From Fastidiosibacter lacustris (GTDB lineage Bacteria; Pseudomonadota; Gammaproteobacteria; Francisellales; Francisellaceae): DNA of 32,000 bases. Of the stretch, positions 8,514 through 22,754 are shown in pieces; the stretch's first letter is position 1; each line of letters starts with the position of its first letter. Under the pieces are notes generated by a model, which made no database searches, was not told the origin of the DNA, and saw only the letters and a program-made list of their open reading frames with translations. The position numbers were made by a program, and so were the translations under genes. The stretch lies in the NCBI RefSeq assembly GCF_003428155.1, contig NZ_QLIR01000008.1:30001-62000 (forward strand), read 5' to 3'.

Positions 8514-8729
8514 GTGAACTTTGCCAATACAGATAATTTAAAAGTAAAACACTTCTCATTTGGAGTTGATAATTATTTTTGCCCAGGCTCAAAAATAACA
8601 AATAAGTTGGGTGAAAATTTTATTGACTTTATAAAAAATAATAAGGCTTTGACGGGAAAGTCTATGTTGGATATAGAATTTGAAGAAAATATTGGTTATC
8701 AGAAAATTAAAAAATTTATGATAGGATAA
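8514..8729 (+). CDS. Hypothetical 71-aa protein (doubtful; possibly a gene remnant)
   Basis: GTG-initiated ORF ending 4 nt before the HAD gene ATG. No family recognised. LTGKSMLDIEFEEN loosely resembles a degenerate SAM-methyltransferase motif I. Very low GC. Confidence 0.2.
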   Translation: MNFANTDNLKVKHFSFGVDNYFCPGSKITNKLGENFIDFIKNNKALTGKSMLDIEFEENIGYQKIKKFMIG

Positions 8730-8733
8730 AGAT

Positions 8734-9504
8734 ATGAATTTTGTGTTTGATATTGATGGCACAATATGTAACAACGGAAGATATATTGATCCTAATATCG
8801 AAAAAGCGATATTGGAATTATCAAAAACAAGAAATGTCATTTTTGCATCTGCCAGACCGATTCGGGATATGTTGCCTTTAATTGATAGCTCATTACATAA
8901 AAGTTTGCTGATCGGCTGCAATGGCGGAATTCATTATAAAGATGGTAGTTTTGGTAAAACTCGTTATTTTAAGAAAGAACAGATAATAAGGGTAATAGAG
9001 TTTATTAAGAACAATGATATGCCCTATGTCCTTGATAGTGATTGGTTCTTTTCTTTATCAGAAAAAAAACATATGTTTCATGATTATATAAGGTCATTAA
9101 GTAATTACGAACTTAGTGAGAAAAAATTGATAAGTAAGGGGGTAACAAAGCTATTAATTTTAGAGAATAAGTTTAAAAACAAATTAATAAAATATCTAAA
9201 TAAACAGAATATATTGTATAGTTTAAATCATCACACTCAAGAGAGTTTTTTTGATATCACCCCAACTAAAAATAACAAGCTGGTCGCTTTAGAAGAGTGC
9301 AATATTGACGTTTCTCGTTCTGTATGTTTCGGTAATGATATGAATGATTTTGAAATGTTAGACAACGCATTTATATCTGTATTTGTGGGCACTAAAAGTT
9401 CTTACAACAAAGCTTCAATTTATACCGATTTTCACCATGTTCATAATGTAATAAAAGACTTATCGTCAAACGCTCTAAGAACAAAATGCTTGTCACAAAT
9501 ATAA
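8734..9504 (+). CDS. HAD-superfamily hydrolase, Cof-type (subfamily IIB) phosphatase
   Basis: Motif I FDIDGTICNNG, motif II FASARP, motif IV FGNDMNDFEML, with an intervening cap-domain-sized insert. AGGA about 9 nt upstream of the ATG. Confidence 0.75.
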   Translation: MNFVFDIDGTICNNGRYIDPNIEKAILELSKTRNVIFASARPIRDMLPLIDSSLHKSLLIGCNGGIHYKDGSFGKTRYFKKEQIIRVIEFIKNNDMPYVLDSDWFFSLSEKKHMFHDYIRSLSNYELSEKKLISKGVTKLLILENKFKNKLIKYLNKQNILYSLNHHTQESFFDITPTKNNKLVALEECNIDVSRSVCFGNDMNDFEMLDNAFISVFVGTKSSYNKASIYTDFHHVHNVIKDLSSNALRTKCLSQI

Positions 9505-9602
9505 GCAGGGTGCTTAGGAAAGTTTTTGGTAATTATGTCATTTCTTCAAACAAAATATCTATGTTGGAATATTAAACTGTTTGTGTTGTTTTTCAGGGAC
9601 AA

Positions 9603-11591
9603 CTATTTAATCGACTGCATTAAGTAACGAATAATAGCATCATCTTCTTTGATCATTGGTGATTGAAAGCTAAGTGGAATCAACTTAGGCTTCATCAAAT
9701 AACCTTCTTGTTGAATTTTCTTTAAGCTATCTAAATGCTTAAGTGAAGTTTTACCCGTAAATAAAAGACTGATATCCACTGTATGATAAGCTTGAATGAC
9801 CTCGCGTAACCCACTTAAATACAAAAAGTCTTTGCTAAAGCCCCCTCCTCGATAGACTCGCGCTACTAGGCAAAAACAAGCATGTGCTTCCAAAGCACAG
9901 ATAGAGCGCATGTAATGATAAGTCTTGGCAAACTCCATATGCTTAATCATATGTTCTACAGCAATCACCCGTAATGCTAATTCATGTAGACGCTTAATGG
10001 TTAAATTTCCAGAAAGGTACTCGCTGAATATTGCCAAGCCTTCCTGAGTGTGAGTATTATTTGGTAGACCCAAGCGCAACAATGATAAAGGTTGAGCTTC
10101 AGAATTAATAGTAGTTAAGGCATGGACTCCTACTTCGTGGTGAATAAGTGCTTGCAACTCTTTGTCAGTAAAATTTGCATTTTTATTAATCACCACTTCA
10201 CGCTTATTATTATCCACCATTGCCTTAGCAATCATTTGATCACTTAATTTAACCGTAAAATCAATACCATATTGATGTATGACTTCTTGAAACAATTGAA
10301 TGATGGAATCACCTGCAAGCGTTGGCTGTTTCGTTTTGTCTTCTATATCAGGGGCATGTAATAAGAAGGTTGCATTGGCAATATCACGATTGCTGGGTTC
10401 GCCATAAATACGCAGGCTGTTATAAAAAAACTCATCCTTACTGATACTCGTTAATAGATCCATATCTAGCGCAAGCGCATCAATTACTTCAGTGTAAAGC
10501 TGCCTTAATGTAGGCGAGCTGACTCGATTAATTGGTAAATGATAAAGCTTTTCCCTAAATTCAAACGGATTAATTTTAAGTTGACGATAACGAAATTTAG
10601 GTTCATAGTTGCCACGCTTTTGAAAAAACTTCTTCTCTTCAGCATGAAAATTAATGGGATTGACATAATTTAATATATCAATTTTACGCGATAACTGAAA
10701 CAAGCAGCGATCAAACTCTAATAATGTTTTATCGACGATGCTTTGCTGTCTTTTAGCTTTAAGTTTTACCTGCTTAAATGTACTTATAAACCTATAAATA
10801 ACGCTTTGCAAACCTTGAGCAATTGCCTCAATCATAAGTGGGGAAGGTTCACCTGTAAGCTCATCCATATAAACTTTTTTAATCTCTAATGGAATCAGTA
10901 AAGTGTCACTAAAATGTTCACGAATAAACTGTGCTTGATAACCACGCCCATAAAACACTAAATCGCACTCAACATTAACATCGATATTATGAATATTCAT
11001 TTCTGAAATAAGCAGCTGATTAAACTGAGTTAAACATTTTTGCCATTTACCCTTATTAATAAAATGCGTACCAATATTAAATACAGGCGAAAGCGTGTCA
11101 CAAATCCGTTGATAATTGTAGCTATGCACATCAAACACACAGCATTTTTTATACTGCTGTTCTAAGGTTTCGACAAGCGCATTTAAAACTTGATAATAGC
11201 TTTGATGTTGTGTTTGAAGTTTAGTGATCACTTTGTTTGTTAATGGTCTTTTCCACACAGCTTTTTCCCAAGCACGCTCATAAATACATGACCCTGGGAT
11301 ACGATTTAAATCATAAGCATAGCGAGAATCATGACCAATCAATGTAATGGGTAAATCGCTAATAAAATAATCTGTAAAAGGGTCTTCCTCGTAGTAGCGC
11401 TCGACTTTAGATAATGCACAATTCTGTTCTAAAGTTTTATCTAAATGCTCTCCTGCATGAATGGCGGTGGCAACGAATGGCACATAATTGCAAATTGCAA
11501 TACTAAACCCACCATGATCAACTTTTGCTTTAAAACATTCATGCGCTTTGATTTTAGCCACAATCTCTTTAGTTGATAGAGTTTGCATCAT
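9603..11591 (-). CDS. Fusion protein: N-formylglutamate amidohydrolase-like domain + DUF1704 / QEGLA-motif (MATCAP-family) metallopeptidase domain
   Basis: N-terminal about 270 aa has IHAGEH and FDVHSY (FGase-like). C-terminal about 350 aa has HHEVGVH (H-E-x3-H) and THTQEGLAIFSEY (QEGLA signature). AAGG SD lies upstream of ATGATG. 23-nt overlap with the upstream ATP-grasp gene. Confidence 0.8.
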   Translation of the reverse strand: MMQTLSTKEIVAKIKAHECFKAKVDHGGFSIAICNYVPFVATAIHAGEHLDKTLEQNCALSKVERYYEEDPFTDYFISDLPITLIGHDSRYAYDLNRIPGSCIYERAWEKAVWKRPLTNKVITKLQTQHQSYYQVLNALVETLEQQYKKCCVFDVHSYNYQRICDTLSPVFNIGTHFINKGKWQKCLTQFNQLLISEMNIHNIDVNVECDLVFYGRGYQAQFIREHFSDTLLIPLEIKKVYMDELTGEPSPLMIEAIAQGLQSVIYRFISTFKQVKLKAKRQQSIVDKTLLEFDRCLFQLSRKIDILNYVNPINFHAEEKKFFQKRGNYEPKFRYRQLKINPFEFREKLYHLPINRVSSPTLRQLYTEVIDALALDMDLLTSISKDEFFYNSLRIYGEPSNRDIANATFLLHAPDIEDKTKQPTLAGDSIIQLFQEVIHQYGIDFTVKLSDQMIAKAMVDNNKREVVINKNANFTDKELQALIHHEVGVHALTTINSEAQPLSLLRLGLPNNTHTQEGLAIFSEYLSGNLTIKRLHELALRVIAVEHMIKHMEFAKTYHYMRSICALEAHACFCLVARVYRGGGFSKDFLYLSGLREVIQAYHTVDISLLFTGKTSLKHLDSLKKIQQEGYLMKPKLIPLSFQSPMIKEDDAIIRYLMQSIK

Positions 11592-12612
11592 CGATTACCT
11601 TAGTTAATAATTTCTTATGCTCAATTAAGTTTCTACGTGTAATAACAATATTTTCTATAAAATCGATCACTTTTTCTTGTAGTTTTACTTTGTTTAACGT
11701 ATTAATCCTTGAAATTCCACCTGGGCTTTGAACATTAACTTCAATAAGCTTACCATTGATGACATCAATACCAACAAAATATAAGCCATCTTCCACAAGC
11801 TTAGGACCAATAAATTTGCATAACGTTTTTTCGTCTTTGCTTAGCACATGCTTTTTAACATAGCCACCTGCATGGACATTAGAGCGAATATCACCTTTTG
11901 CGGGAATACGCCGCATCGCACCAATTGGTTCACCATTTAACATCAAAATACGCACATCACCTTGATCTGCTCCTTCTACATACTCTTGCAAAATAACGTA
12001 ATTGCCTTTTGAATTTTTATTCCCTATATAAAAATCTAACAATGATCTAAAGTTAGATGCTGCTTTTTTCTCAACGATGATCACACCTTCACCACCAAAA
12101 CCATTTAGAGGTTTTAAAATCATTCTATCTCCAGGAGACTCTGCTAAAACACGCTGTAAATACTCACGGTTTTTTGAAGCGTGTGTCACTGGAATAAAAC
12201 GGTTTTCGTGATCGTTGAAGGATGATGTATAAAGCTTGTTATTAGCAATCCTTAAGCCATTTAGGCTATTCATGATAAAAGTATGTGAGTCTACCGAATC
12301 TAAGAAGTTTAAAGCCAAAGTGTCCAGCGGTGGATTATCGCGCATAAAAATCATATCAAACCCTGACAATGGCAATTGGCAGCGCTTAAATTTGGCGTTT
12401 TTATAAAAGGAAACAAAATTATTAGTTACCTTTGTTTCTTTAGTAAAAACGTCAACGTAGGCTTGAGCAACGCTATTACGAATTGTAAGGTTATTTGGAG
12501 TTGTCAATGCAACCATGTGCCCTCTTTTGACACACTCATGAATCAAGCGTAAAGTTGAATCCATTTGAGCCTCAACACGCTCCCAAGGGTACATAATAAA
12601 ACATATTCTCAT
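11569..12612 (-). CDS. Glutathione-synthetase-like ATP-grasp ligase
   Basis: GshB-type N-domain (MRICFIMYPWERV...DSTLRLIHECVKRGH) and ATP-grasp motifs ILKPLNGFGGEGV and FVGIDVINGKLIEVNVQSPGG. Start placed at ATG 12612 (AGGA SD); the track start at 12675 is probably an extension. Confidence 0.8.
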   Translation of the reverse strand: MRICFIMYPWERVEAQMDSTLRLIHECVKRGHMVALTTPNNLTIRNSVAQAYVDVFTKETKVTNNFVSFYKNAKFKRCQLPLSGFDMIFMRDNPPLDTLALNFLDSVDSHTFIMNSLNGLRIANNKLYTSSFNDHENRFIPVTHASKNREYLQRVLAESPGDRMILKPLNGFGGEGVIIVEKKAASNFRSLLDFYIGNKNSKGNYVILQEYVEGADQGDVRILMLNGEPIGAMRRIPAKGDIRSNVHAGGYVKKHVLSKDEKTLCKFIGPKLVEDGLYFVGIDVINGKLIEVNVQSPGGISRINTLNKVKLQEKVIDFIENIVITRRNLIEHKKLLTKVIDDANSIN

Positions 12613-12800
12613 TTTTAGTGTCCTGATTTTTATTCTTTTTCGCTCATGATTTCTATTAACCACTGATCTAAACAATCAAACATAAAATCTGTCATTAGTC
12701 CTTTATCATTAAGTTGGTAAAGCGTAAGCATCAATTGATTAAACTTCGATTTCCATTTTGGCAGGTAGATTAATACTCTATTCTCTGGTCACCTAACTTA

Positions 12801-12844
12801 TATCTGTAAACTGTAATGCATATATCTGTAAACTGTAATGCATA
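12801..12844. repeat. Perfect 22-bp tandem duplication (2 copies)
   Basis: TATCTGTAAACTGTAATGCATA occurs at 12801-12822 and again at 12823-12844. Each unit contains CTGTAA twice. The site lies between the rnhB stop and the ATP-grasp operon start. Confidence 0.9.
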
Positions 12845-12851
12845 TCATAGA

Positions 12852-14152: not shown

Positions 14153-14242
14153 CTTTAAAATTGAACCTATCACCTTATTCATAAATAAGCTATTATACAC
14201 AACTAATTTTTTATGAGAGCAAAAAACCAAAAGGTATTGCCA

Positions 14243-15052
14243 ATGCATCCAATGATGAATGTTGCAGTAAAAGCTGCGCGCAAAGCAGGTCGCATGATTC
14301 TAAATGCCAGTGAAAATATGCAAAATGTTCAAATACAAACTAAATCACATAACAACTATGTTACTAATGTCGACGTTGAAGTAGAAAAAGCCATTGTTGA
14401 TATTTTGCAAAGAGCTTTTCCTGATCAATATTACATTACTGAAGAATCAGGAGAATTTGGGAAAAAAAACAGCGATCACACGTGGATTATTGACCCAATT
14501 GATGGCACCAACAACTTTATACATCGGATCCCACACCATTGCGTATCAATCGCCATGCAGTTTCGTGGCAAAACTGAGCTTGCAGTTGTTTACAATCCTT
14601 ATTTGGATCAACTGTTTACTGCAACAAAAGGCTCTGGCGCACAATTAAACGGTCAGCGTATCCGAGTTGCTAATCGTAAAGACTTCACTGGTTGCTTGTT
14701 CTCAGGTGCATTGAAGTTTAGTAAAAAAGTGTTCGCACCTAGCTATCCTGAGGCAGTATTAGATTTACATAAAGAAATTTCAGGACTTCGTTATTCTGGC
14801 TCTCTTGCCCTTGACATGTGCTATGTTGCAGCTGGCTACTTAGATGCCGTTTGGACTTCACGTGATGCCAAGATCTGGGATACAGCAGGTGCAGCTTTAA
14901 TTATCAAAGAAGCAGGTGGAATGCTTTGTGGTTTAGATGGTGGGGTAAACTTCTTAGATGATGGTCGCTTAATTGCAGGAAATCCACGAATTGTCTCCAA
15001 ATTGACAAAATTCTTAGCGCCACATTTAATGCCTGCTAATAGCGAAGCCTAA
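14243..15052 (+). CDS. suhB: Inositol-1-monophosphatase family protein SuhB
   Basis: MHPMMNVAVKAARKAG parallels E. coli SuhB MHPMLNIAVRAARKAG. WIIDPIDGTNNF metal-binding motif. Start set at ATG 14243. Confidence 0.9.
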   Translation: MHPMMNVAVKAARKAGRMILNASENMQNVQIQTKSHNNYVTNVDVEVEKAIVDILQRAFPDQYYITEESGEFGKKNSDHTWIIDPIDGTNNFIHRIPHHCVSIAMQFRGKTELAVVYNPYLDQLFTATKGSGAQLNGQRIRVANRKDFTGCLFSGALKFSKKVFAPSYPEAVLDLHKEISGLRYSGSLALDMCYVAAGYLDAVWTSRDAKIWDTAGAALIIKEAGGMLCGLDGGVNFLDDGRLIAGNPRIVSKLTKFLAPHLMPANSEA

Positions 15053-16368: not shown

Positions 16369-17223
16369 CTATTGATAAAAAGTACAAGCACACCTACTAT
16401 CATGATAGGCGTACAGCGTTTGTGCAACTGAAGTTGAGCCTGTTGCAAAATTCCCTTTATTATCCAGTGCAATTAATCCAACATAATCATCAAGTGCATC
16501 ACTTTCCTTAATGCTTTTATCGACTGCCTGTTGCAAGCTCATCCCATCTCTTACACGGGTATGTACTTTAGCAGCAACCGCTTCATTGATGATTTGCTCA
16601 CCAATCCCTGTACAAGATATGCCCATTATTTTTGAAGCATAATTACCTGCTATCGTTGGGCTATCACCAACACGCCCTGGAACTTCAAAACCAGCCCCTC
16701 CTGTGGAAGTTAAGGCAACAATATTATTCGAATGATCAAGCACCACCACACCAATCGTGCCAGTTAATCCTTTTTTAAGCTCAAGATATTCTTGGTAACG
16801 ATGCTCAGTAATTGGATTATACTTGGGCATTTTTAAACGATGGCGTGCATAATATGTTGCTTCATTTGCTGCTAGAATACTATGCTGATGAGTCAAAAGT
16901 GATGCTGCTACTTCACTTGGATATTGAATATCTTGAATATTGATGACTGCTGCAAATTTGCCTAAGCAGCTATCCATAATCGAAGCTGACATGCGCACTT
17001 GACCATCTTGCTGTAACCTTGAACCAGTTCCTGCATTGAAAATGGGAACATCTTCTAAACACTTTGCTGTAAATACCGCAGTTTTTAATGCATCATCACT
17101 TTTTTGTAAAAATGAATAGGCTTGTTTGATAATTGTTAATAAATGATTGTGGTAATCTTGAAACCTTGTGTTGTAATCTTCTCTTGCGCCACAGCCTCCA
17201 TGAATAATGATTCTTTGCATCAT
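16369..17223 (-). CDS. iaaA: Isoaspartyl peptidase / plant-type L-asparaginase (Ntn hydrolase)
   Basis: Autoprocessing/nucleophile site LTG|TIGVVVLD, HGGCGA N-terminus, GAGFEVPGRVGDSP. ATGA overlap with the cphB stop. Confidence 0.85.
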   Translation of the reverse strand: MMQRIIIHGGCGAREDYNTRFQDYHNHLLTIIKQAYSFLQKSDDALKTAVFTAKCLEDVPIFNAGTGSRLQQDGQVRMSASIMDSCLGKFAAVINIQDIQYPSEVAASLLTHQHSILAANEATYYARHRLKMPKYNPITEHRYQEYLELKKGLTGTIGVVVLDHSNNIVALTSTGGAGFEVPGRVGDSPTIAGNYASKIMGISCTGIGEQIINEAVAAKVHTRVRDGMSLQQAVDKSIKESDALDDYVGLIALDNKGNFATGSTSVAQTLYAYHDSRCACTFYQ

Positions 17224-18038
17224 ATCACCCTTACTTCATGTACGTTGGCATCATACTTACTGCCTTCTAATAGTAAGTGCATGCGGATGCCAACTAAACT
17301 AATTGGATCATTATCACGTGCATCTGGCATAGAAGAGTGTTCAATATGGGACATATCAATAATGGTCAATGCCCCACTACCAACAACTTCAATCACACCA
17401 TCATGTGCCAAAAACGCACCTGTATCCTCATCGATGCCAACACCGGTCACAAATGGATTATAGGAAAGCGCTGTTAATAAACGCCCTAACCGATCACGTT
17501 GTGAGAAGTGTTGATCTACTAAAATCTTATTGGTCAATCCTAGCCCTGGTGCCATATTAACCATATTATAACGTGGCATAAATCCATTTGCCCCTCCTAC
17601 AATCATATGCTCAGAAATAAACGCCGCTCCTGCTGAGGTGCCTGCAACATGAACTCCTTTGGCATTACATCGACGAATCAATTGCGCCACTTTAGTCCCA
17701 CCCAAAATCGTAGATAACAAGAGCTGATTACCACCTGTCATAAAAATGCCTGTTGCTTTTTCAAAATGAGCCAAATACGCTTCTTTATAAGTATCTGCAC
17801 GATTTTGAATTTCTAAACTGATTGCATTTTTAACCCCAAGGTTATTAAAAATTTTAACGTATTCACTCCCAGTATCTAGTAACTTAGATGCTGTTGGGAT
17901 AATCACAATATACGCATCTTCACCACCACTTAACTCAATAAACCTTGTCAGCACTTTAGAAGAAGTAAATTTATCTTCTCGACCACCAATTGGAATAATA
18001 TAACCTCTATGAATACCTGAAACTGTCGGTGCTGGCAC
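17220..18038 (-). CDS. cphB: Cyanophycinase (S51 peptidase)
   Basis: IIPIGGRED, MTGGNQ, AGTSAGAA (catalytic Ser). Start best placed at GTG 18038, which lies 7 nt downstream of GGAGG (18046-18050, minus strand). The track start at 18074 is a TTG overlapping the upstream gene. Confidence 0.9.
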   Translation of the reverse strand: MPAPTVSGIHRGYIIPIGGREDKFTSSKVLTRFIELSGGEDAYIVIIPTASKLLDTGSEYVKIFNNLGVKNAISLEIQNRADTYKEAYLAHFEKATGIFMTGGNQLLLSTILGGTKVAQLIRRCNAKGVHVAGTSAGAAFISEHMIVGGANGFMPRYNMVNMAPGLGLTNKILVDQHFSQRDRLGRLLTALSYNPFVTGVGIDEDTGAFLAHDGVIEVVGSGALTIIDMSHIEHSSMPDARDNDPISLVGIRMHLLLEGSKYDANVHEVRVI

Positions 18039-18067
18039 CTTTATACCTCCTATTTGCTTAGGGTTTA

Positions 18068-19768
18068 TTAGCAAAATGTTTTTACCAAATCTGTTACTGG
18101 TGTGATCTGATCATGACAGCAAAGCACACATACATCATCTGATTGTAAATTTTGTAATGCTTGTTTTGCACCAGATAGCTCATCTTCAACAAAAAAGATT
18201 GTATCTTGTTTTATGCCAAAATGAGCTAAGGATACTGCTACTTTTTGAGGAATTTCTCCTAACTTTGCACCACGTAAATATTTTTTGAGCTCTTTAATAA
18301 AAATCTGGCTTGGTTGATATTGCACAACTACCCTTGAACAATCATCAATTAAGTTAATCCTATCTCCTGTTGTACCAAGCATTAATGAAAGCCTTGAGTC
18401 TTTGTTACAGTAGTGACGTGCAAGAGATAAAATTGCATCTAAACCTGCTGGGTTATGAGCAAAATCAACAATAACCGTTGCTCCAGATTGAAGCTCATAG
18501 ATATTTGCTCTGCCTTGATTTTGATTTATATCGTTCTTATAAGTTGTAAGCGCATGTCCAATATCATCTAAAGATATACCCAGTGCATAAGCTAAAGCAA
18601 TCGCATGCAATGTATTCTCAATGTTGTGTTTAGCCGCACCATTAATGGTCAGTGGAACATCTGTTAGCTTAACAAGTATATGCTCTTTATAGTTTTCCCA
18701 CCAAATAAATACGTTATTTTTAACGTAACAAGCTTTATCCTTATCCGATAAAGTACCTAATTGGGATACTTCAATTGGGTTTTTACTAATCAGAATTTTA
18801 TTAGGTTTTTTAATCACATTGACTAAACTTGCTAAATGAACGTCATCCAGATTGATCACAGCATATGCGTTTTCACCTGCTAATCCTCGATAAACGATAC
18901 ATTTTGCTTCAATAAGGTCCTGAAGTGTTTCAACACCATCTTCACCCATATGATCAGGTGATACATTCGTAATCGTAGCAGCTTTAACTTGAGTTTCAAT
19001 AAGTCCACGCTTTAATAGACCACCTCGTGCTGATTCTAACACGGCTATCTCCACTTGAGGATTGGTTAAAACAAATTGATGTCCTGTTGGTCCTGAATAA
19101 TCACCTTTACCTATGATCTGATCATTAATCACTACCCAATCTGTTGAAGCATAACCTGTTAACTTTCCTGCTTGTTGGCAAATGTAATAGGTTAACCTCA
19201 CCGTTGTTGTTTTGCCATTTGTTCCAGTGACAATCACTGCTGGCACATCATATACATCTTGCCAAGGAATAGATAAATAATCATCCGTTAATAAAGATAC
19301 TTTATATCTACCGACGCCAGAGCCAACATAAGCTTCATCACCATCTCGAAAAACATTCACTCCATGTGTTTTAGCTTTGGCATAAAGTACGCGATAGGCT
19401 GGATTTTGTTCTGCTTTGATCATTTTTTGCAAAACATCCTTAGCCTCTTTGCAAACAACGAATTCCTGTTTATGCAAAAATCTATAACAAGCTTCTTTCC
19501 AGGTATAATCAATCACATCGCAGGCAGCTAAAAGAATATCGACAGGTGCGGTAAATGCTAGGCGTAAACCACCATTATAGATTTTATAAGCAAGCTTATA
19601 CTCTCCCCAATTAAGTTCAGTTAAAACACGCTTACACACATTCTGCCAGATGTTAACCAACTCTTGCTGATGTGACTTTAATGGAATATCTAACACCGTC
19701 CCTGTTTCGCTGAAAAAAAGGTTTGGTCCCACTAAGCGACGAGAATACCCTTCTGGTAGATCAATCAT
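18068..19768 (-). CDS. Cyanophycin-synthetase paralogue with N-domain-like region + Mur-ligase-like M domain, lacking the ATP-grasp G domain
   Basis: VTGTNGKTTTVRL, LESARGGLLKRGL, NVSPDHMGEDGVETLQDL and DFAHNPAG mirror the M domain of the adjacent CphA. N-terminus RRLVGPNLFF mirrors CphA NVYIGPNLYA. No ATP-grasp segment. AAGGG SD. Starts 14 nt after the cphA stop. Confidence 0.7.
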   Translation of the reverse strand: MIDLPEGYSRRLVGPNLFFSETGTVLDIPLKSHQQELVNIWQNVCKRVLTELNWGEYKLAYKIYNGGLRLAFTAPVDILLAACDVIDYTWKEACYRFLHKQEFVVCKEAKDVLQKMIKAEQNPAYRVLYAKAKTHGVNVFRDGDEAYVGSGVGRYKVSLLTDDYLSIPWQDVYDVPAVIVTGTNGKTTTVRLTYYICQQAGKLTGYASTDWVVINDQIIGKGDYSGPTGHQFVLTNPQVEIAVLESARGGLLKRGLIETQVKAATITNVSPDHMGEDGVETLQDLIEAKCIVYRGLAGENAYAVINLDDVHLASLVNVIKKPNKILISKNPIEVSQLGTLSDKDKACYVKNNVFIWWENYKEHILVKLTDVPLTINGAAKHNIENTLHAIALAYALGISLDDIGHALTTYKNDINQNQGRANIYELQSGATVIVDFAHNPAGLDAILSLARHYCNKDSRLSLMLGTTGDRINLIDDCSRVVVQYQPSQIFIKELKKYLRGAKLGEIPQKVAVSLAHFGIKQDTIFFVEDELSGAKQALQNLQSDDVCVLCCHDQITPVTDLVKTFC

Positions 19769-19782
19769 AACATTTACCCTTT

Positions 19783-22596
19783 TTAGTCTGCATCTTCATC
19801 AGCATGCACAGCAATTCGCACACCGCGCTCATCGGCAATAATCCCTGCTTGCATCATTTCAACGATCTCTTTTGCCAACCCATGACTTTGAGATAACGTA
19901 ATGGCATGCTTGTTTACTTGTTGTGGGATCTCCCCTAATGCTGACTCTAGCTTATTAAAGTGAATGATCTGTTTCCAGGTTTTTTTAATGTCATCGGCAA
20001 AAATCACAACTAGATCATCTGCTTTGGCATGATTAAGTGCCGTATCAACTGCTTGAGCTTCTTCTTCAATAATTTCTATATTTTGACTTGCTACACCTGC
20101 TTCTAACAATCCTTGCTTTAATAAACACGGAATTTCACCATACTCTCGCCCTCTTAATCCATTATCTTGCTTACAAATAAAACGATCAAAATAAGTTGCT
20201 GCTGCTTTTGCCAGATTCAACACATCCTGGTCTCGCCTATCTCCAGGTGCCGCAATTACACAAGTTTTAAAACCTTTTACCTCAATTTTCTCAACTAATT
20301 TACCTATTGCTTCAACTGCTACAGGATTGTGTGCATAATCCAACAATACTTTAAATGGATGCTCATCAAACCAATTCATTCTGCCTGGTGCTTGGTAAAA
20401 TGAAGTAGTGAATGTGCGTAAGCCATTTTTAATGTCATCTAAGCCCATATTCATGCTATAAGCAATTGCTACTGCAAACATCGCGTTTTGTACGTTATGA
20501 ATAGCACGACCTTCCATTGTTGCTGGAATCAAATGTGTCCATAATACAGGCATATGAATGTGATTATCAAAAATTGTAATCATATCACCATTGACACCTT
20601 TCTCTATGACAACCGCTTTCCCACCTGTGCGAATATGTTCTTTCACTAAACCATGCTCTGGATTCATCGTTACATACATGATGTGCTGTGCATTTGTATA
20701 AGCAGATAATCGTAAACAATGTGGGTCATCTGCATTAAATACAGCTACATCATGAGCAGCATCGGTAACGATTCGCTTGACATCAGCAAGCTCCTCTAGT
20801 GTATTAACGCCCTTTAACCCCATATGATCTTCAGAAATATTGATACAAGCACCAACGTTACAATAATCATATCCTAAGCCACTTCTTAATAAGCCACCAC
20901 GCGCGGTTTCAAACACTGCAACCTCTACGGCAGGATCCCTTAATATCATTTGTGCTGATCTAGGCCCTGTCATATCACCTGCAACTGTTTGCTTGCCATT
21001 AACGTAAACTCCATCTGTTGTTGTAAAGCCAACAGATTTGCCTGCAATTTTCCACATGTGTGCTACCATACGCGTTGTTGTTGTTTTACCATTGGTACCT
21101 GTAATTGCAGCAATTGGAATTCGTGCACATTCTGTATTAGGAAACAGCATATCCATCACAGCACCAGCAACATCTCTAGATTGACCTTCACTTGGAGAAA
21201 CATGCATTCTAAAACCAGGAGCAGCATTAACTTCACAAATTGCTCCACCTACTTCTTGATAAGATTGAGTAATATCAGGTGATAAAAAGTCAACGCCACC
21301 AACATCCAAACCAATAGCAGTAACTGCACGCTCAGCCATTTCACGGTTGTCTGGATGCACAACATCCGTCATATCAATTGCTGTACCACCTGTTGATAGA
21401 TTTGCCGTTTTACGTAAATAGAAAGTCTCCCCTTCTGCTAAAACACTCTCTACATTTAAGCCTGCTTTTTCAAGTAGCATCAATGCTTGATGATCAAGTT
21501 CTAAACGTGTTAATACTTTTTCATGTCCCACACCACGTCTTGGGTCTTCATTTACAATATCCACAAGCTCAGTAATGCTATGCTTACCATCACCAACAAT
21601 ATGTCCTGGTACACGTTTTGCCACGGCTACAAGCTTACCATTAACAACTAACATCCTATGGTCAAAACCCTCAACATACTGCTCCACAATTACCCAACGA
21701 CCATGCTCTTTAGCAACGGCGTAAGCTTTTTTCAAAGTTTCTTCATCCTGAATATTAATTGTAATTCCTCTCCCATGATTACCATCCAATGGCTTAACCA
21801 CAAGTGGGTAACCTAAATGTTTTGCCACTGAAATGGTATCGCTTTCATAACGTATAGTTCTTTGCTTGGGCACGGGTAACCCCAAACCATTTAAGATAGT
21901 ATTGGTTTGCGCTTTATCACATGAAATCTCAACCGCAATATGCTTAGTTTCGCTTGTAATTGTTGCTTGAATACGTTTTTGGTACTTACCATGCCCAAAC
22001 TGCACCAATGAGTGTTCATTTAGGCGTATGTAAGGAATATCACGCTTTGTTGCAGCTTCCACTAACGACCCTGTACTTGGACCAAACTCCTTACTTTGCG
22101 CAAACTTAATGAAGCCCACTTTTTGCTCTTCAAAATCAAAAGTCTCCAAATTGACATTGAGCTCTTGTTGTAAGTGTTTAGGTAATAAGGATAATAGTAA
22201 ATCACGCCCAAGATAGCTTGCCTGTAAACCAACATCTTTTTGCTTGTATTCAAACACCATATTATATTGCCCAGGCAGTCCCGTACTTCTTGTTTTACCA
22301 AAACTTACTTGGCTACCTGCAATATCTTGAAGTTCAATGGCCACATGTTCCCAAATATGTCCCATCCAAGTCCCTTTACCTTCTTTCATACGACGAATAA
22401 AACCACCTGGCTCTCGGTATGAACAACCATGCTCTTTTAACCCTGATAAGGCTTCCACCAACTTATCAATAAACTCATCACCTAATTTTGCAGATGGCCA
22501 ATGCTCTAAAATACCCAAATCAATTACGTGTCGGATCACTGGGAAATTGGCATATAAATTAGGACCAATATAGACATTACTTGAAATAATTTGCAT
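19783..22596 (-). CDS. cphA: Cyanophycin synthetase (N, ATP-grasp G and Mur-ligase-like M domains)
   Basis: MQIISSNVYIGPNLY N-domain; G domain PLVVKPLDGNHGRGITI; M domain ITGTNGKTTTTRM, NISEDHMG, DYAHNP. Start placed at ATG 22596 with AAGGGAG SD; the track start at 22707 is an extension. Confidence 0.9.
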   Translation of the reverse strand: MQIISSNVYIGPNLYANFPVIRHVIDLGILEHWPSAKLGDEFIDKLVEALSGLKEHGCSYREPGGFIRRMKEGKGTWMGHIWEHVAIELQDIAGSQVSFGKTRSTGLPGQYNMVFEYKQKDVGLQASYLGRDLLLSLLPKHLQQELNVNLETFDFEEQKVGFIKFAQSKEFGPSTGSLVEAATKRDIPYIRLNEHSLVQFGHGKYQKRIQATITSETKHIAVEISCDKAQTNTILNGLGLPVPKQRTIRYESDTISVAKHLGYPLVVKPLDGNHGRGITINIQDEETLKKAYAVAKEHGRWVIVEQYVEGFDHRMLVVNGKLVAVAKRVPGHIVGDGKHSITELVDIVNEDPRRGVGHEKVLTRLELDHQALMLLEKAGLNVESVLAEGETFYLRKTANLSTGGTAIDMTDVVHPDNREMAERAVTAIGLDVGGVDFLSPDITQSYQEVGGAICEVNAAPGFRMHVSPSEGQSRDVAGAVMDMLFPNTECARIPIAAITGTNGKTTTTRMVAHMWKIAGKSVGFTTTDGVYVNGKQTVAGDMTGPRSAQMILRDPAVEVAVFETARGGLLRSGLGYDYCNVGACINISEDHMGLKGVNTLEELADVKRIVTDAAHDVAVFNADDPHCLRLSAYTNAQHIMYVTMNPEHGLVKEHIRTGGKAVVIEKGVNGDMITIFDNHIHMPVLWTHLIPATMEGRAIHNVQNAMFAVAIAYSMNMGLDDIKNGLRTFTTSFYQAPGRMNWFDEHPFKVLLDYAHNPVAVEAIGKLVEKIEVKGFKTCVIAAPGDRRDQDVLNLAKAAATYFDRFICKQDNGLRGREYGEIPCLLKQGLLEAGVASQNIEIIEEEAQAVDTALNHAKADDLVVIFADDIKKTWKQIIHFNKLESALGEIPQQVNKHAITLSQSHGLAKEIVEMMQAGIIADERGVRIAVHADEDAD

Positions 22597-22754
22597 AAAG
22601 CGCTCCCTTGTATTTTTTCCCAAAAATAGTCTATTTAGAATAATCAAACCAAATGCTATTGTATAGCAAACTTTAATGCTTTTTACATTGAAGGTAGATA
22701 AAAACATAAGTTGATCAATAATCGCTCTCTAATAAACTTTGAGCTCAACTTCCT

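What the first reader, a model, noticed from the sequence alone, without database searches (positions are those of the whole stretch)
9603..12612. GshB-type ATP-grasp ligase translationally coupled to a fused FGase + DUF1704/MATCAP-type peptidase: candidate ligate-and-trim system
Seen: two minus-strand genes overlap by 23 nt. The first has a prokaryotic glutathione-synthetase N-domain plus ATP-grasp motifs (ILKPLNGFGGEGV; VGIDVINGKLIEVNVQSPGG). The second (662 aa) fuses an N-formylglutamate-amidohydrolase-like domain (IHAGEH, FDVHSY) to a DUF1704 domain carrying HHEVGVH (H-E-x3-H spacing) and THTQEGLA. Established, from memory: DUF1704 is the family of the eukaryotic tubulin-detyrosinating carboxypeptidase MATCAP/KIAA0895L. 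Tubulin tyrosine ligase is an ATP-grasp enzyme whose fold was first related to glutathione synthetase. Comparative-genomic surveys of amidoligases predicted that ATP-grasp plus peptidase/amidohydrolase neighbourhoods make and trim peptide tags or small peptides. I know of no defined substrate for this architecture. Inference: the operon pairs the same two folds as the tyrosination/detyrosination cycle. It may add an amino acid to a carboxylate (a protein C-terminus or a small metabolite) and remove it again. The FGase-like domain would supply a second amide-hydrolysing activity.
Basis: partly seen in the sequence, partly recalled or inferred. Interest (0 to 1): 0.75.

Follow-up and report, generated by a model that had tools for sequence, protein, structure and literature searches.

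The report
Conserved ligase plus two-headed peptidase operon
Two overlapping genes in Fastidiosibacter lacustris, a glutathione-synthetase-like ligase and a two-domain hydrolase related to the human tubulin-trimming enzyme MATCAP, travel together in hundreds of bacteria and probably add and remove an amino acid on a still unknown substrate.

Summary
Window 11569-12612(-) encodes a 347-aa GshB-fold ATP-grasp ligase. It overlaps by 23 nt a 662-aa fusion of an FGase domain and a MATCAP/DUF1704 (TIGR02421 'QEGLA') domain.

Both hydrolase domains keep invariant catalytic-type residues. Their models match solved FGase and human MATCAP structures.

The ligase is not a canonical glutathione synthetase. 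It belongs to the NF009110/PRK12458 paralogue subfamily, and it replaces residues that canonical GshB conserves.

The linkage is very strong:
- 77 of 80 genomes chosen by the fusion have the ligase overlapping upstream.
- 69 of 75 metagenome contigs chosen by the ligase have the fusion downstream.
- Rhizobia carry the same three modules unfused and in another gene order.

No third gene, riboswitch or defence signature is conserved. In Photobacterium damselae the pair is induced 27-38-fold at low salinity.

Best reading: a self-contained module that extends a carboxylate by one residue and removes it again, on a non-glutathione and probably glutamate-containing substrate. A small peptide is slightly favoured over a protein tail.

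The substrate and the antagonism are untested, and the TTL analogy holds only at superfamily level. I rate it a new variant of a known kind, of moderate to high interest.

The parts
11569..12612 (-). ATP-grasp amide ligase, 347 aa. GshB fold, NF009110/PRK12458 paralogue subfamily. It has an extra C-terminal helix (res 311-345).
   Evidence: Pfam GSH-S_N plus GSH-S_ATP. NF009110 scores 447 bits (cutoff 408), while TIGR01380 scores 237, below its cutoff of 299. The AF2 model has pLDDT 85 and best matches 1GSA at TM 0.89. 52-81% identical orthologues lie upstream of the fusion in 77 of 80 loci.
9603..11591 (-). Two-domain hydrolase, 662 aa: FGase-like domain, flexible linker, MATCAP/QEGLA metallopeptidase domain.
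   Evidence: The AF2 model has pLDDT 91. Foldseek matches human MATCAP 7Z5G (E 1e-11, TM 0.71) and FGase 2Q7S (E 4e-10, TM 0.73).
10908..11480 (-). FGase-like domain (res 38-228 by Pfam; the structural domain is about res 1-275). Invariant residues include H45, G47, E69, D70, S89, R90, D94, N96, R97, D154, H156, N159.
   Evidence: It is 35% identical to the stand-alone FGase of the S. meliloti cassette.
10740..10766 (-). Inter-domain linker (res 276-284).
   Evidence: The only segment of the model with pLDDT below 50. The alignment is variable and gapped here.
9657..10634 (-). MATCAP/DUF1704 domain (res 320-645).
   Evidence: PF08014 at 322 bits. phmmer against human KIAA0895L gives 2.5e-11. 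Fold match.
10122..10139 (-). HExxxH motif (H485-E486-V-G-V-H490).
   Evidence: It aligns with RHEIGTH of human MATCAP. In the E281Q cryo-EM construct that stretch reads RHQIGTH. H485, E486 and H490 are invariant in 50 sequences.
10032..10046 (-). QEGLA motif (Q516-A520). E517 is the presumed third metal ligand.
   Evidence: It aligns with EEGLA of human MATCAP. Q516, E517, G518 and A520 are invariant.
11569..11591 (-). 23-nt coding overlap between the ligase 3' end and the fusion 5' end, with an internal AAGG Shine-Dalgarno-like site.
   Evidence: Overlaps of 17-23 nt occur in 62 of 76 related loci.
12613..12851 (.). Upstream spacer between rnhB and the ligase. It contains a perfect 22-bp tandem repeat (12799-12845), a possible regulatory site.
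   Evidence: There is no Rfam match. The promoter scan is not above chance.

Best explanation
The two genes form one self-contained enzymatic module.

The ligase works like GshB or RimK. It activates the terminal carboxylate of its substrate as an acyl-phosphate, using ATP, and joins an amino acid to it.

The co-translated partner carries two different metal-dependent hydrolase heads, and both families release a residue that bears a free alpha-carboxylate. The MATCAP-type head would remove the C-terminal residue of the extended product. The FGase-type head would hydrolyse the remaining N-acyl-amino-acid bond. Together they would make and dismantle, and so set the level of, a short amide-linked compound that is not glutathione.

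My preferred version is a small acidic peptide or pseudopeptide, probably containing glutamate, with two chemically different amide bonds, and not a protein tail.

Shown: the identity, fold and intact catalytic residues of the three modules; the ligase's separation from canonical GshB; the obligate genomic linkage; co-induction of the pair.

Inferred: that the hydrolase acts on the ligase's product; the order of the two hydrolytic steps; the glutamate content; the small size of the substrate.
For: Module identity and intact sites.

Linkage:
- 77 of 80 loci chosen by the fusion have the ligase, across Gammaproteobacteria, Chlamydiales, Scalindua, Trueperaceae, Bacteroidota and Sulfurimonadaceae.
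- 69 of 75 loci chosen by the ligase have the fusion.
- Relatives only 43-47% identical to the ligase are still paired, with a fusion or with a MATCAP-only gene.
- Rhizobial plasmids carry FGase, then X::MATCAP, then a PRK12458 ligase as three genes in another order, in 4 genera with unrelated flanks.
- No other gene is conserved with the pair.

Not glutathione synthetase:
- The canonical equivalog TIGR01380 scores below its cutoff.
- D9, D88, E124 and T288 of canonical GshB are replaced.
- The S. meliloti 2011 chromosomal gshB mutant lacks GSH, although pSymB carries intact cassette ORFs.
- The pair is strain-variable in V. vulnificus.

Small-molecule preference:
- The best fold match is GshB including its N-domain (TM 0.89, against 0.80-0.85 for RimK).
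- 51 of 59 jointly conserved columns are identical to canonical GshB, including the N-domain motifs and both lid loops.
- FGase, the family's named enzyme, acts on the small substrate N-formylglutamate (family definition).
- Two different hydrolase heads fit two different amide bonds.

Co-regulation: in P. damselae 'GshB' RS17020 rises 38-fold and QEGLA RS17025 27.5-fold at 1% versus 3% NaCl.
Against: - No substrate or product is known for any member. Nothing shows that the hydrolase reverses the ligase.
- Making and destroying the same compound from one operon looks futile unless the two activities are regulated.
- The only characterised MATCAP-family enzymes act on protein tails.
- The ligase's large loop motif (GDxRSNxHxGG) resembles RimK more than GshB.
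- rimK is co-induced with the pair in P. damselae. One lone fusion gene sits near rimK and a rimB-like gene.
- A few lineages keep only the ligase or only the fusion.
- The module contains no gene for making a gamma-glutamyl or acyl precursor.
Confidence: 0.38

Rival explanations
1. Protein-tail tagging. The ligase adds one or more residues, such as Glu, to the acidic C-terminus of a conserved cellular protein, as RimK does on ribosomal protein S6. The MATCAP head trims alpha-linked residues. The FGase/M14-like head removes the last or an atypically linked residue. This would be a bacterial counterpart of the tubulin tail cycle.
For: - MATCAP/TMCP enzymes are carboxypeptidases of acidic protein tails.
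- RimK is the ligase's second-best structural neighbour, and the ligase shares RimK's RSNxHxGG loop motif.
- Three acidic residues conserved in canonical GshB (D9, D88, E124) are neutral in this clade, which would tolerate an acidic tail.
- rimK rises 52-fold with the pair at low salt.
- A lone fusion gene lies next to rimK and a rimB-like gene in Desulfocapsa.
- The ligase is unusually conserved: 62-69% identical across phyla, against 41-45% for the hydrolase.
- After FGases, the nearest fold neighbours of the N-domain are metallocarboxypeptidases 4A37, 4B6Z and 3L2N. From memory, these are bacterial CCP-type M14 enzymes.
Against: - No candidate target gene is linked in 160 loci.
- The GshB-type N-domain and closing lids are retained.
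- The named FGase enzyme acts on a small molecule.
- RimK equivalog models score far below cutoff (55 bits against 331; 82 against 143).
Confidence: 0.25
2. Sequential salvage or remodelling, not antagonism. The two hydrolase heads first strip residues or an acyl group from an imported or endogenous peptide. The ligase then re-extends the exposed carboxylate with a different amino acid, so the operon converts one peptide into another.
For: - The strict three-module linkage fits a pathway as well as it fits a cycle.
- This avoids the futile-cycle problem.
- More distant GshB-like ligases sit next to Opp-type peptide transporters.
Against: - No transporter or other pathway gene is conserved with the pair.
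- Both hydrolase families and the ligase family act on the same end of a molecule, the C-terminal residue, which is the geometry expected for opposing reactions.
Confidence: 0.15
3. The ligase is a genuine second glutathione (or homoglutathione-type) synthetase, and the fusion degrades glutathione-like gamma-glutamyl tripeptides. The module would be a condition-specific GSH turnover system.
For: - Public annotation is 'glutathione synthase'.
- NF003573 scores 277 bits, just above its 272 cutoff.
- The catalytic residues and many N-domain residues of GshB are conserved.
- A carboxypeptidase plus an N-acyl-amino-acid amidase could dismantle a gamma-Glu-X-Y tripeptide.
Against: - TIGR01380 scores below its cutoff. 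In the S. meliloti orthologue both canonical models fail (211 against 272; 205 against 299).
- Residues conserved in canonical GshB are replaced.
- The S. meliloti gshB mutant has no GSH despite carrying the paralogue.
- The pair occurs in Chlamydiales, Trueperaceae and Bacteroidota. From general knowledge, glutathione synthesis is not expected in these groups. This was not tested here.
Confidence: 0.1
4. The adjacency is selectively neutral hitch-hiking of unrelated genes on a mobile segment.
For: - The phyletic distribution is patchy and suggests horizontal transfer.
- The pair is strain-variable in V. vulnificus.
Against: - The overlap is conserved and the flanks differ between genomes.
- The same three modules recur when fissioned and reordered.
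- The two genes are co-induced.
Confidence: 0.02

Closest known systems
RimK-RimB(-RimA) of Pseudomonas: ribosomal protein S6 (RpsF) glutamylation and trimming
   Same: A co-transcribed ATP-grasp ligase extends a C-terminus, and a hydrolase removes the added residues (PMC7343187; PMC11957791). RimK is the ligase's second-closest structure. rimK is co-induced with the pair in P. damselae.
   Different: The ligase here has the GshB N-domain and fails the RimK models. The hydrolase is a metallo FGase::MATCAP fusion, not a retropepsin-like aspartic protease. There is no RimA-type regulator. The substrate is unknown.
Eukaryotic tubulin tail cycle: TTL/TTLL ligases with MATCAP/TMCP1, TMCP2 and CCP carboxypeptidases
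   Same: An ATP-grasp ligase is paired with a MATCAP-family metallocarboxypeptidase. The HExxxH...E site is shared with human MATCAP. The second hydrolase head belongs to the same broad fold group as M14 carboxypeptidases.
   Different: The ligase is GshB/RimK-like, not TTL-like. There is no tubulin or microtubule-binding context. Identity to human MATCAP is only 22%. The genes are operonic and fused in bacteria.
Canonical bacterial glutathione synthetase GshB (E. coli, PDB 1GSA)
   Same: Same fold (TM 0.89, 29% identity). The ATP, Mg and phosphate residues and both flexible loops are conserved.
   Different: It falls in a separate HMM subfamily (NF009110) and fails TIGR01380. D9, D88, E124 and T288 are replaced. 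It has an extra C-terminal helix. It is obligately linked to a peptidase. A family member does not replace gshB in S. meliloti.
N-formylglutamate amidohydrolase HutG and FGase-family structures 2Q7S and 2ODF
   Same: Same fold (TM 0.71-0.74) and a Pfam FGase match.
   Different: The HutG equivalog model scores 19 bits against a cutoff of 279. There is no histidine-utilisation context. The domain is fused to a peptidase.
Small-molecule ligase/hydrolase pairs (from memory, not tested here): glutathionylspermidine synthetase/amidase; RIMKLA/B (NAAG and beta-citrylglutamate synthetases) with glutamate carboxypeptidase II/III; cyanophycin synthetase with cyanophycinase
   Same: An ATP-grasp-type ligase makes an amide-linked small or polymeric compound, and a dedicated hydrolase takes it apart. 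A cyanophycin cluster of this kind lies 4 kb away in the window.
   Different: The enzyme families of the hydrolases differ. None uses an FGase::MATCAP fusion. Their products are known, and here the product is unknown.

Membership tests
Canonical glutathione synthetase GshB (EC 6.3.2.3) | Scores above the trusted cutoff of the equivalog HMMs. | tested here: inconclusive
   TIGR01380 scores 237 bits, below its 299 cutoff (fails). NF003573 scores 277, just above 272. The best model is the subfamily NF009110 at 447 bits. The S. meliloti cassette ligase fails both equivalogs.
Canonical glutathione synthetase GshB (EC 6.3.2.3) | ATP-grasp catalytic, Mg and phosphate residues (E. coli K125, K160, G166/G167, R210, R225, R233, N235, D273, E281, N283). 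| tested here: met
   All are conserved in the window clade.
Canonical glutathione synthetase GshB (EC 6.3.2.3) | Residues conserved throughout canonical GshB outside the ATP site (D9, D88, E124, T288). | tested here: not met
   They are Y, N, N and G in the window clade. N/S/T at position 124 and G at 288 occur in all QEGLA-linked ligases examined. Their roles in substrate binding are not known to me.
Canonical glutathione synthetase GshB (EC 6.3.2.3) | Makes glutathione in vivo. | not testable with these tools
   Indirect evidence only. The S. meliloti 2011 gshB (SMc00419) mutant lacks GSH by HPLC (PMC7063052), while pSymB of that strain carries intact cassette ORFs.
NF009110 / PRK12458 GshB-paralogue subfamily | Whole-protein score above the curated cutoff. 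| tested here: met
   447 bits against 408. The S. meliloti cassette ligase scores 499.6 bits.
MATCAP / DUF1704 (PF08014; TIGR02421 QEGLA) | HMM scores above the curated cutoffs. | tested here: met
   PF08014 scores 322 bits against 27. TIGR02421 scores 371.5 against 338.65.
MATCAP / DUF1704 (PF08014; TIGR02421 QEGLA) | HExxxH plus downstream Glu (E-E/Q-G-L-A) catalytic and metal site. | tested here: met
   H485, E486, H490 and E517 are present. They align with human RHEIGTH and EEGLA. They are invariant in 50 homologues. Human E281A is catalytically dead (PMC10499314).
MATCAP / DUF1704 (PF08014; TIGR02421 QEGLA) | Fold of solved MATCAP. | tested here: met
   Foldseek against 7Z5G gives E 1.2e-11 and target-normalised TM 0.71, from a model with pLDDT 91.
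MATCAP / DUF1704 (PF08014; TIGR02421 QEGLA) | Carboxypeptidase activity on a C-terminal residue. | not testable with these tools
   An enzyme assay is needed.
FGase (PF05013) | Pfam score above the gathering threshold, and the FGase fold. | tested here: met
   60.4 bits against 28.9. 2Q7S gives E 4e-10 and TM 0.73; 2ODF gives TM about 0.71-0.74.
HutG N-formylglutamate deformylase (TIGR02017 equivalog) | Equivalog score above the cutoff. | tested here: not met
   19.2 bits against 278.75. This is a family member but not HutG.
RimK (S6--L-glutamate ligase) | Equivalog or subfamily HMM above the cutoff. | tested here: not met
   NF007764 scores 55 bits against 331. TIGR00768 scores 82 against 143. 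Structural similarity is second to GshB.
Tubulin tyrosine ligase (TTL/TTLL) | A TTL family HMM or fold match closer than to other ATP-grasp families. | tested here: not met
   No TTL family appears among Pfam hits at E up to 0.01. TTL is absent from the top 50 Foldseek PDB hits.

The most novel reading that the evidence does not exclude
The module is a bacterial 'C-terminal tail code'. The PRK12458 ligase would add residues to the acidic C-terminus of a conserved protein. The FGase::MATCAP fusion would erase them in response to osmotic or ionic conditions. This operon would also be the prokaryotic source of the MATCAP/TMCP enzymes that eukaryotes recruited for tubulin detyrosination and deglutamylation.
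Probability: 0.2. Interest if true: 0.85.

Novelty: new variant of a known kind. Interest (0 to 1): 0.6.

Why it matters
MATCAP/TMCP enzymes were recognised only in 2022-2023, as tubulin tail carboxypeptidases. Their large bacterial sister family (DUF1704, 'QEGLA') has no known substrate.

In bacteria this peptidase is almost always welded to an ATP-grasp ligase and an FGase-type amidase. That gives a concrete, testable biochemical context: three purifiable enzymes, a strong inducing condition, and several genetically tractable hosts (Photobacterium, Vibrio vulnificus, Sinorhizobium meliloti).

The finding also corrects a widespread annotation error. Hundreds of genes named 'glutathione synthase' are probably not that, and an RNA-seq study has already interpreted one as GshB.

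If the substrate is a protein tail, the module would be a second bacterial reversible C-terminal modification system and a likely evolutionary precursor of part of the tubulin code. If the substrate is a small peptide, it would define a new regulated metabolite, possibly linked to salinity adaptation.

Tried and rejected
- Third conserved gene or linked substrate gene. Clustering all ORFs of 80 loci found only an HdfR-type LysR regulator and a DUF413 protein, in 38 loci of related marine orders. This looks like lineage synteny and is absent from the window. A 70-aa ORF upstream of the S. meliloti cassette has no acidic tail and was not seen in the other rhizobial loci. A 70-aa ORF upstream of a Legionella stand-alone QEGLA gene is a lipoprotein.
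- Riboswitch or other RNA clue to the ligand. There is no Rfam match in the window or in six diverse loci.
- Defence system. There is no PADLOC hit.
- Promoter and terminator scan. Nothing is above chance.
- Literature. 'DUF1704', 'QEGLA', 'COG3930', 'flavohemoglobin expression-modulating' and 'MATCAP + bacteria' gave no functional study. The Iyer et al. 2009 amidoligase survey is not held.
- Sequence search of the FGase domain alone against PDB. No hit; only the fold search links it.
- Extending the linked clade further. Ligase relatives at 35-41% identity (P0250, P0252, P0255) are not next to a MATCAP gene, so the linkage is clade-specific.
- A second gshB or a gshA in the F. lacustris genome.


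Full report
**Observation.** The two minus-strand ORFs exist as described. The downstream ORF, 9603-11591, encodes 662 aa. The upstream ORF runs to a TTG at 12675, but every homologue starts at the ATG at 12612 (MRICF..., 347 aa). The coding sequences overlap at 11569-11591, which is 23 nt. The overlap would be 20 nt if the second ATG is used, since homologues begin MQT. An AAGG lies 7-8 nt upstream of the start. All quoted motifs are present. A 100% identical ligase is recorded for Fastidiosibacter lacustris.

**What the proteins are: the ligase.**
- It matches GSH-S_N (1.5e-22) and GSH-S_ATP (5e-54).
- Its AlphaFold model (pLDDT 85) superposes best on E. coli GshB 1GSA (E 4e-26, TM 0.89, 29% identity).
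- RimK comes next (TM 0.80-0.85), followed by DcsG, LysX/ArgX and graspetide cyclases. TTL is not in the top 50.
- The model adds a 35-residue C-terminal helix that E. coli GshB lacks.

**What the proteins are: the fusion.**
- It matches FGase (res 38-228, 3.6e-16) and MATCAP/DUF1704 (res 320-645, 5e-96). It passes the TIGR02421 'QEGLA' cutoff.
- Its model (pLDDT 91, with one disordered linker at res 276-284) matches human MATCAP 7Z5G (E 1e-11, TM 0.71) with the C-domain.
- The N-domain matches FGase structures 2Q7S and 2ODF (E 4e-10 to 1e-6, TM about 0.71-0.74). More weakly (E about 1e-3) it matches the metallocarboxypeptidases 4A37, 4B6Z and 3L2N.
- HHEVGVH aligns with RHEIGTH of human MATCAP, and TQEGLA with TEEGLA. 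Human E281A is catalytically dead (PMC10499314).
- In 50 homologues H485, E486, H490 and E517 are invariant. So is a His/Asp/Glu/Arg set in the FGase domain: H45, E69, D70, R90, N96, R97, D154, H156.
- Both hydrolase heads therefore look active.

**The ligase is not an ordinary glutathione synthetase.**
- Its best NCBIfam model is the subfamily NF009110/PRK12458 (447 bits, cutoff 408). The canonical equivalog TIGR01380 fails (237 against 299), and NF003573 is borderline (277 against 272).
- I compared 36 clade members with 14 canonical-type representatives. Of 59 columns conserved in both groups, 51 are identical, covering all ATP, Mg and phosphate residues, the N-domain motifs and both lid loops.
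- Eight columns differ. They include three acidic residues of canonical GshB that become neutral (D9 to Y, D88 to N, E124 to N), and T288 to G.
- N/S/T at position 124 and G at 288 are shared by every peptidase-linked ligase I looked at. The large loop reads GDxRSNxHxGG, as in RimK.
- A neighbour-joining tree of 138 sequences places the window clade apart from E. coli GshB, though the internal branches are short.
- Literature gives independent support. A single mutation of chromosomal gshB (SMc00419) in S. meliloti 2011 abolishes GSH (PMC7063052), although pSymB of that strain carries intact ORFs of the homologous cassette.
- In V. vulnificus the COG3930 gene and its 'glutathione synthetase' neighbour (VV2_1203/1204) are listed as clade-specific accessory genes (PMC3091676).

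**Linkage.**
- The FGase::MATCAP architecture is common. There were 506 hits, and the best 120 are all about 660 aa with both domains.
- A scan of one genome per species found 596 relatives. The best 80 come from Gammaproteobacteria (Photobacterium, Colwellia, Pseudoalteromonas, Shewanella, Thalassotalea, Fangia), Chlamydiales, Scalinduaceae, Trueperaceae, Bacteroidota, Sulfurimonadaceae and others, mostly from marine or saline sources.
- In 77 of these 80 the ligase lies immediately upstream on the same strand. The overlap is usually 17-23 nt.
- The ligase is more conserved (52-81% identity) than the fusion (41-55%).
- The converse also holds. Of 75 metagenome contigs picked with the ligase that had room downstream, 69 carry the fusion at the ligase's end.
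- Five of the six exceptions are one Shewanella-like lineage with a lone ligase.
- Ligase relatives at 43-47% identity are still paired, once with a fusion and once with a MATCAP-only gene. Relatives at 35-41% are not paired.
- The rhizobial loci are the most telling. Plasmids and chromids of Sinorhizobium, Mesorhizobium, Shinella and Aminobacter carry the same three modules as separate genes in another order, inside unrelated flanks. The order there is:
  - a stand-alone FGase, 35% identical to the window's N-domain;
  - a 617-628-aa protein with an unassigned N-terminal region plus MATCAP;
  - a PRK12458 ligase (499 bits).
- Fusion in one lineage and fission with reordering in another is classical evidence of a shared function.
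- Stand-alone QEGLA proteins of about 426 aa (26-31% identity) in Pseudoalteromonas and Legionella have no ligase nearby. The linkage is therefore a property of this subfamily, not of all bacterial MATCAP homologues.

**What else was looked for.**
- No further gene is conserved with the pair. The exception is an HdfR-type regulator and a DUF413 protein in Vibrionales, Alteromonadales and Neptuniibacter, which are absent from the window.
- There is no Rfam element, no defence-system hit, and no promoter or terminator signal above chance.
- The 240-nt spacer upstream of the ligase holds a perfect 22-bp tandem repeat.

**Expression.** In P. damselae RM-71, adjacent loci annotated 'GshB' (RS17020) and 'QEGLA motif protein' (RS17025) on chromosome II rise 38-fold and 27.5-fold at 1% versus 3% NaCl. 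That places them among the strongest responses, together with rimK at 52-fold. The authors read the ligase as glutathione synthetase (PMC10308900). I infer from tag adjacency and from locus L047 that these two genes are this pair.

**Mechanism.** GshB and RimK both activate a terminal alpha-carboxylate as an acyl-phosphate and add one amino acid. MATCAP removes a C-terminal residue. FGase hydrolyses an N-acyl-amino acid and releases the residue with the free carboxylate. The three modules therefore act on the same kind of bond at the same end of a molecule, which is the geometry of an add/remove cycle. Two different hydrolase heads suggest two different amide bonds. Glutamate recurs in the chemistry of all three families.
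- I favour a small acidic peptide or pseudopeptide as the substrate. The reasons are the GshB-type N-domain and lids, the small-molecule precedent of FGase, and the absence of a linked target gene.
- A protein-tail substrate remains a serious rival. The reasons are MATCAP precedent, the RimK-like loop, the loss of acidic pocket residues, co-induction with rimK, and a lone fusion gene beside rimK and a rimB-like gene in Desulfocapsa.
- A sequential remodelling pathway and a true glutathione role are less likely.
- None of these readings is demonstrated.

**Comparison and novelty.** The closest characterised bacterial analogue is RimK-RimB (PMC7343187). The closest eukaryotic analogue is TTL/TTLL with MATCAP/TMCP and CCPs. 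The window's system shares the logic of these systems but belongs to neither. It fails the RimK and TTL membership tests, and it uses a hydrolase architecture not described in the searchable literature. The families themselves are catalogued (TIGR02421, PRK12458), and comparative-genomic surveys that I could not read may have noted the neighbourhood. I therefore rate it a new variant of a known kind.

**Limits.** No biochemical data exist for any member. I could not inspect model coordinates, so no pocket analysis was possible. I could not test for gshA or gshB elsewhere in the genome. The tree is a distance tree without support values.

Noticed in passing
window 16369-22707 (-): A complete cyanophycin cluster: CphA (974 aa), a CphA-like protein lacking the ATP-grasp part (566 aa, Mur-ligase M and C domains), a Peptidase_S51 cyanophycinase, and an Asparaginase_2 isoaspartyl dipeptidase. 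This is a second ATP-grasp-ligase-plus-peptidase system 4 kb from the finding. It is not conserved beside the pair in other genomes.
   Followed up: partly
window 12799-12845: A perfect 22-bp tandem repeat (TATATCTGTAAACTGTAATGCA, 2.1 copies) in the spacer between rnhB and the ligase start. It could be an operator or a promoter element. It has no Rfam match.
   Followed up: partly
L001 (GCA_024208055.1, same species) 8720-11920: This other assembly differs from the window by one inserted A and two substitutions in 3.2 kb. That splits the fusion gene into ORFs of 77, 422 and 156 aa. The HAD hydrolase and bioF genes are also split there, so sequencing error is more likely than pseudogenisation.
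   Followed up: partly
L011 7496-8848 and 37 other loci (Vibrionales, Alteromonadales, Neptuniibacter): An HdfR-type LysR regulator (NF002946, 261 bits) and a DUF413/PRK11027-like small protein lie just upstream of the pair. Their orientation varies, and Neptuniibacter has two DUF413 copies flanking the pair. They may be a lineage-specific regulator.
   Followed up: partly
L032 6934-11992 (Desulfocapsa MAG): An FGase::MATCAP gene without the GshB-like ligase. A bona fide rimK (464 bits) and a RimB-like retropepsin gene lie 2 kb upstream on the opposite strand.
   Followed up: partly
L133, L137, L140, L144, L165: One Shewanella-like lineage keeps the ligase alone, between rnhA/dnaQ and fabB, with no fusion gene within 4 kb.
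   Followed up: no
L167 472-2985 (TARA metagenome): A variant operon: a 118-aa predicted membrane protein, then a ligase 47% identical to the window's, then a MATCAP-only protein (379 aa) without an FGase domain.
   Followed up: no
L172 1-5681: Two tandem GshB-like ATP-grasp ligases (40% identical to the window ligase) followed by an Opp-type peptide ABC transporter. No MATCAP gene is present.
   Followed up: no
L082 4254-6140 (S. meliloti pSymB) and rhizobial orthologues: The rhizobial QEGLA proteins carry an N-terminal region of about 250 aa with no Pfam match and no BLAST similarity to the FGase domain. Its nature is unknown.
   Followed up: no
window 14213-15052 (+): A suhB-type inositol monophosphatase lies two genes from the pair. 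An inositol monophosphatase is also among the top low-salt-induced genes in P. damselae (26.9-fold). This is probably coincidence.
   Followed up: no
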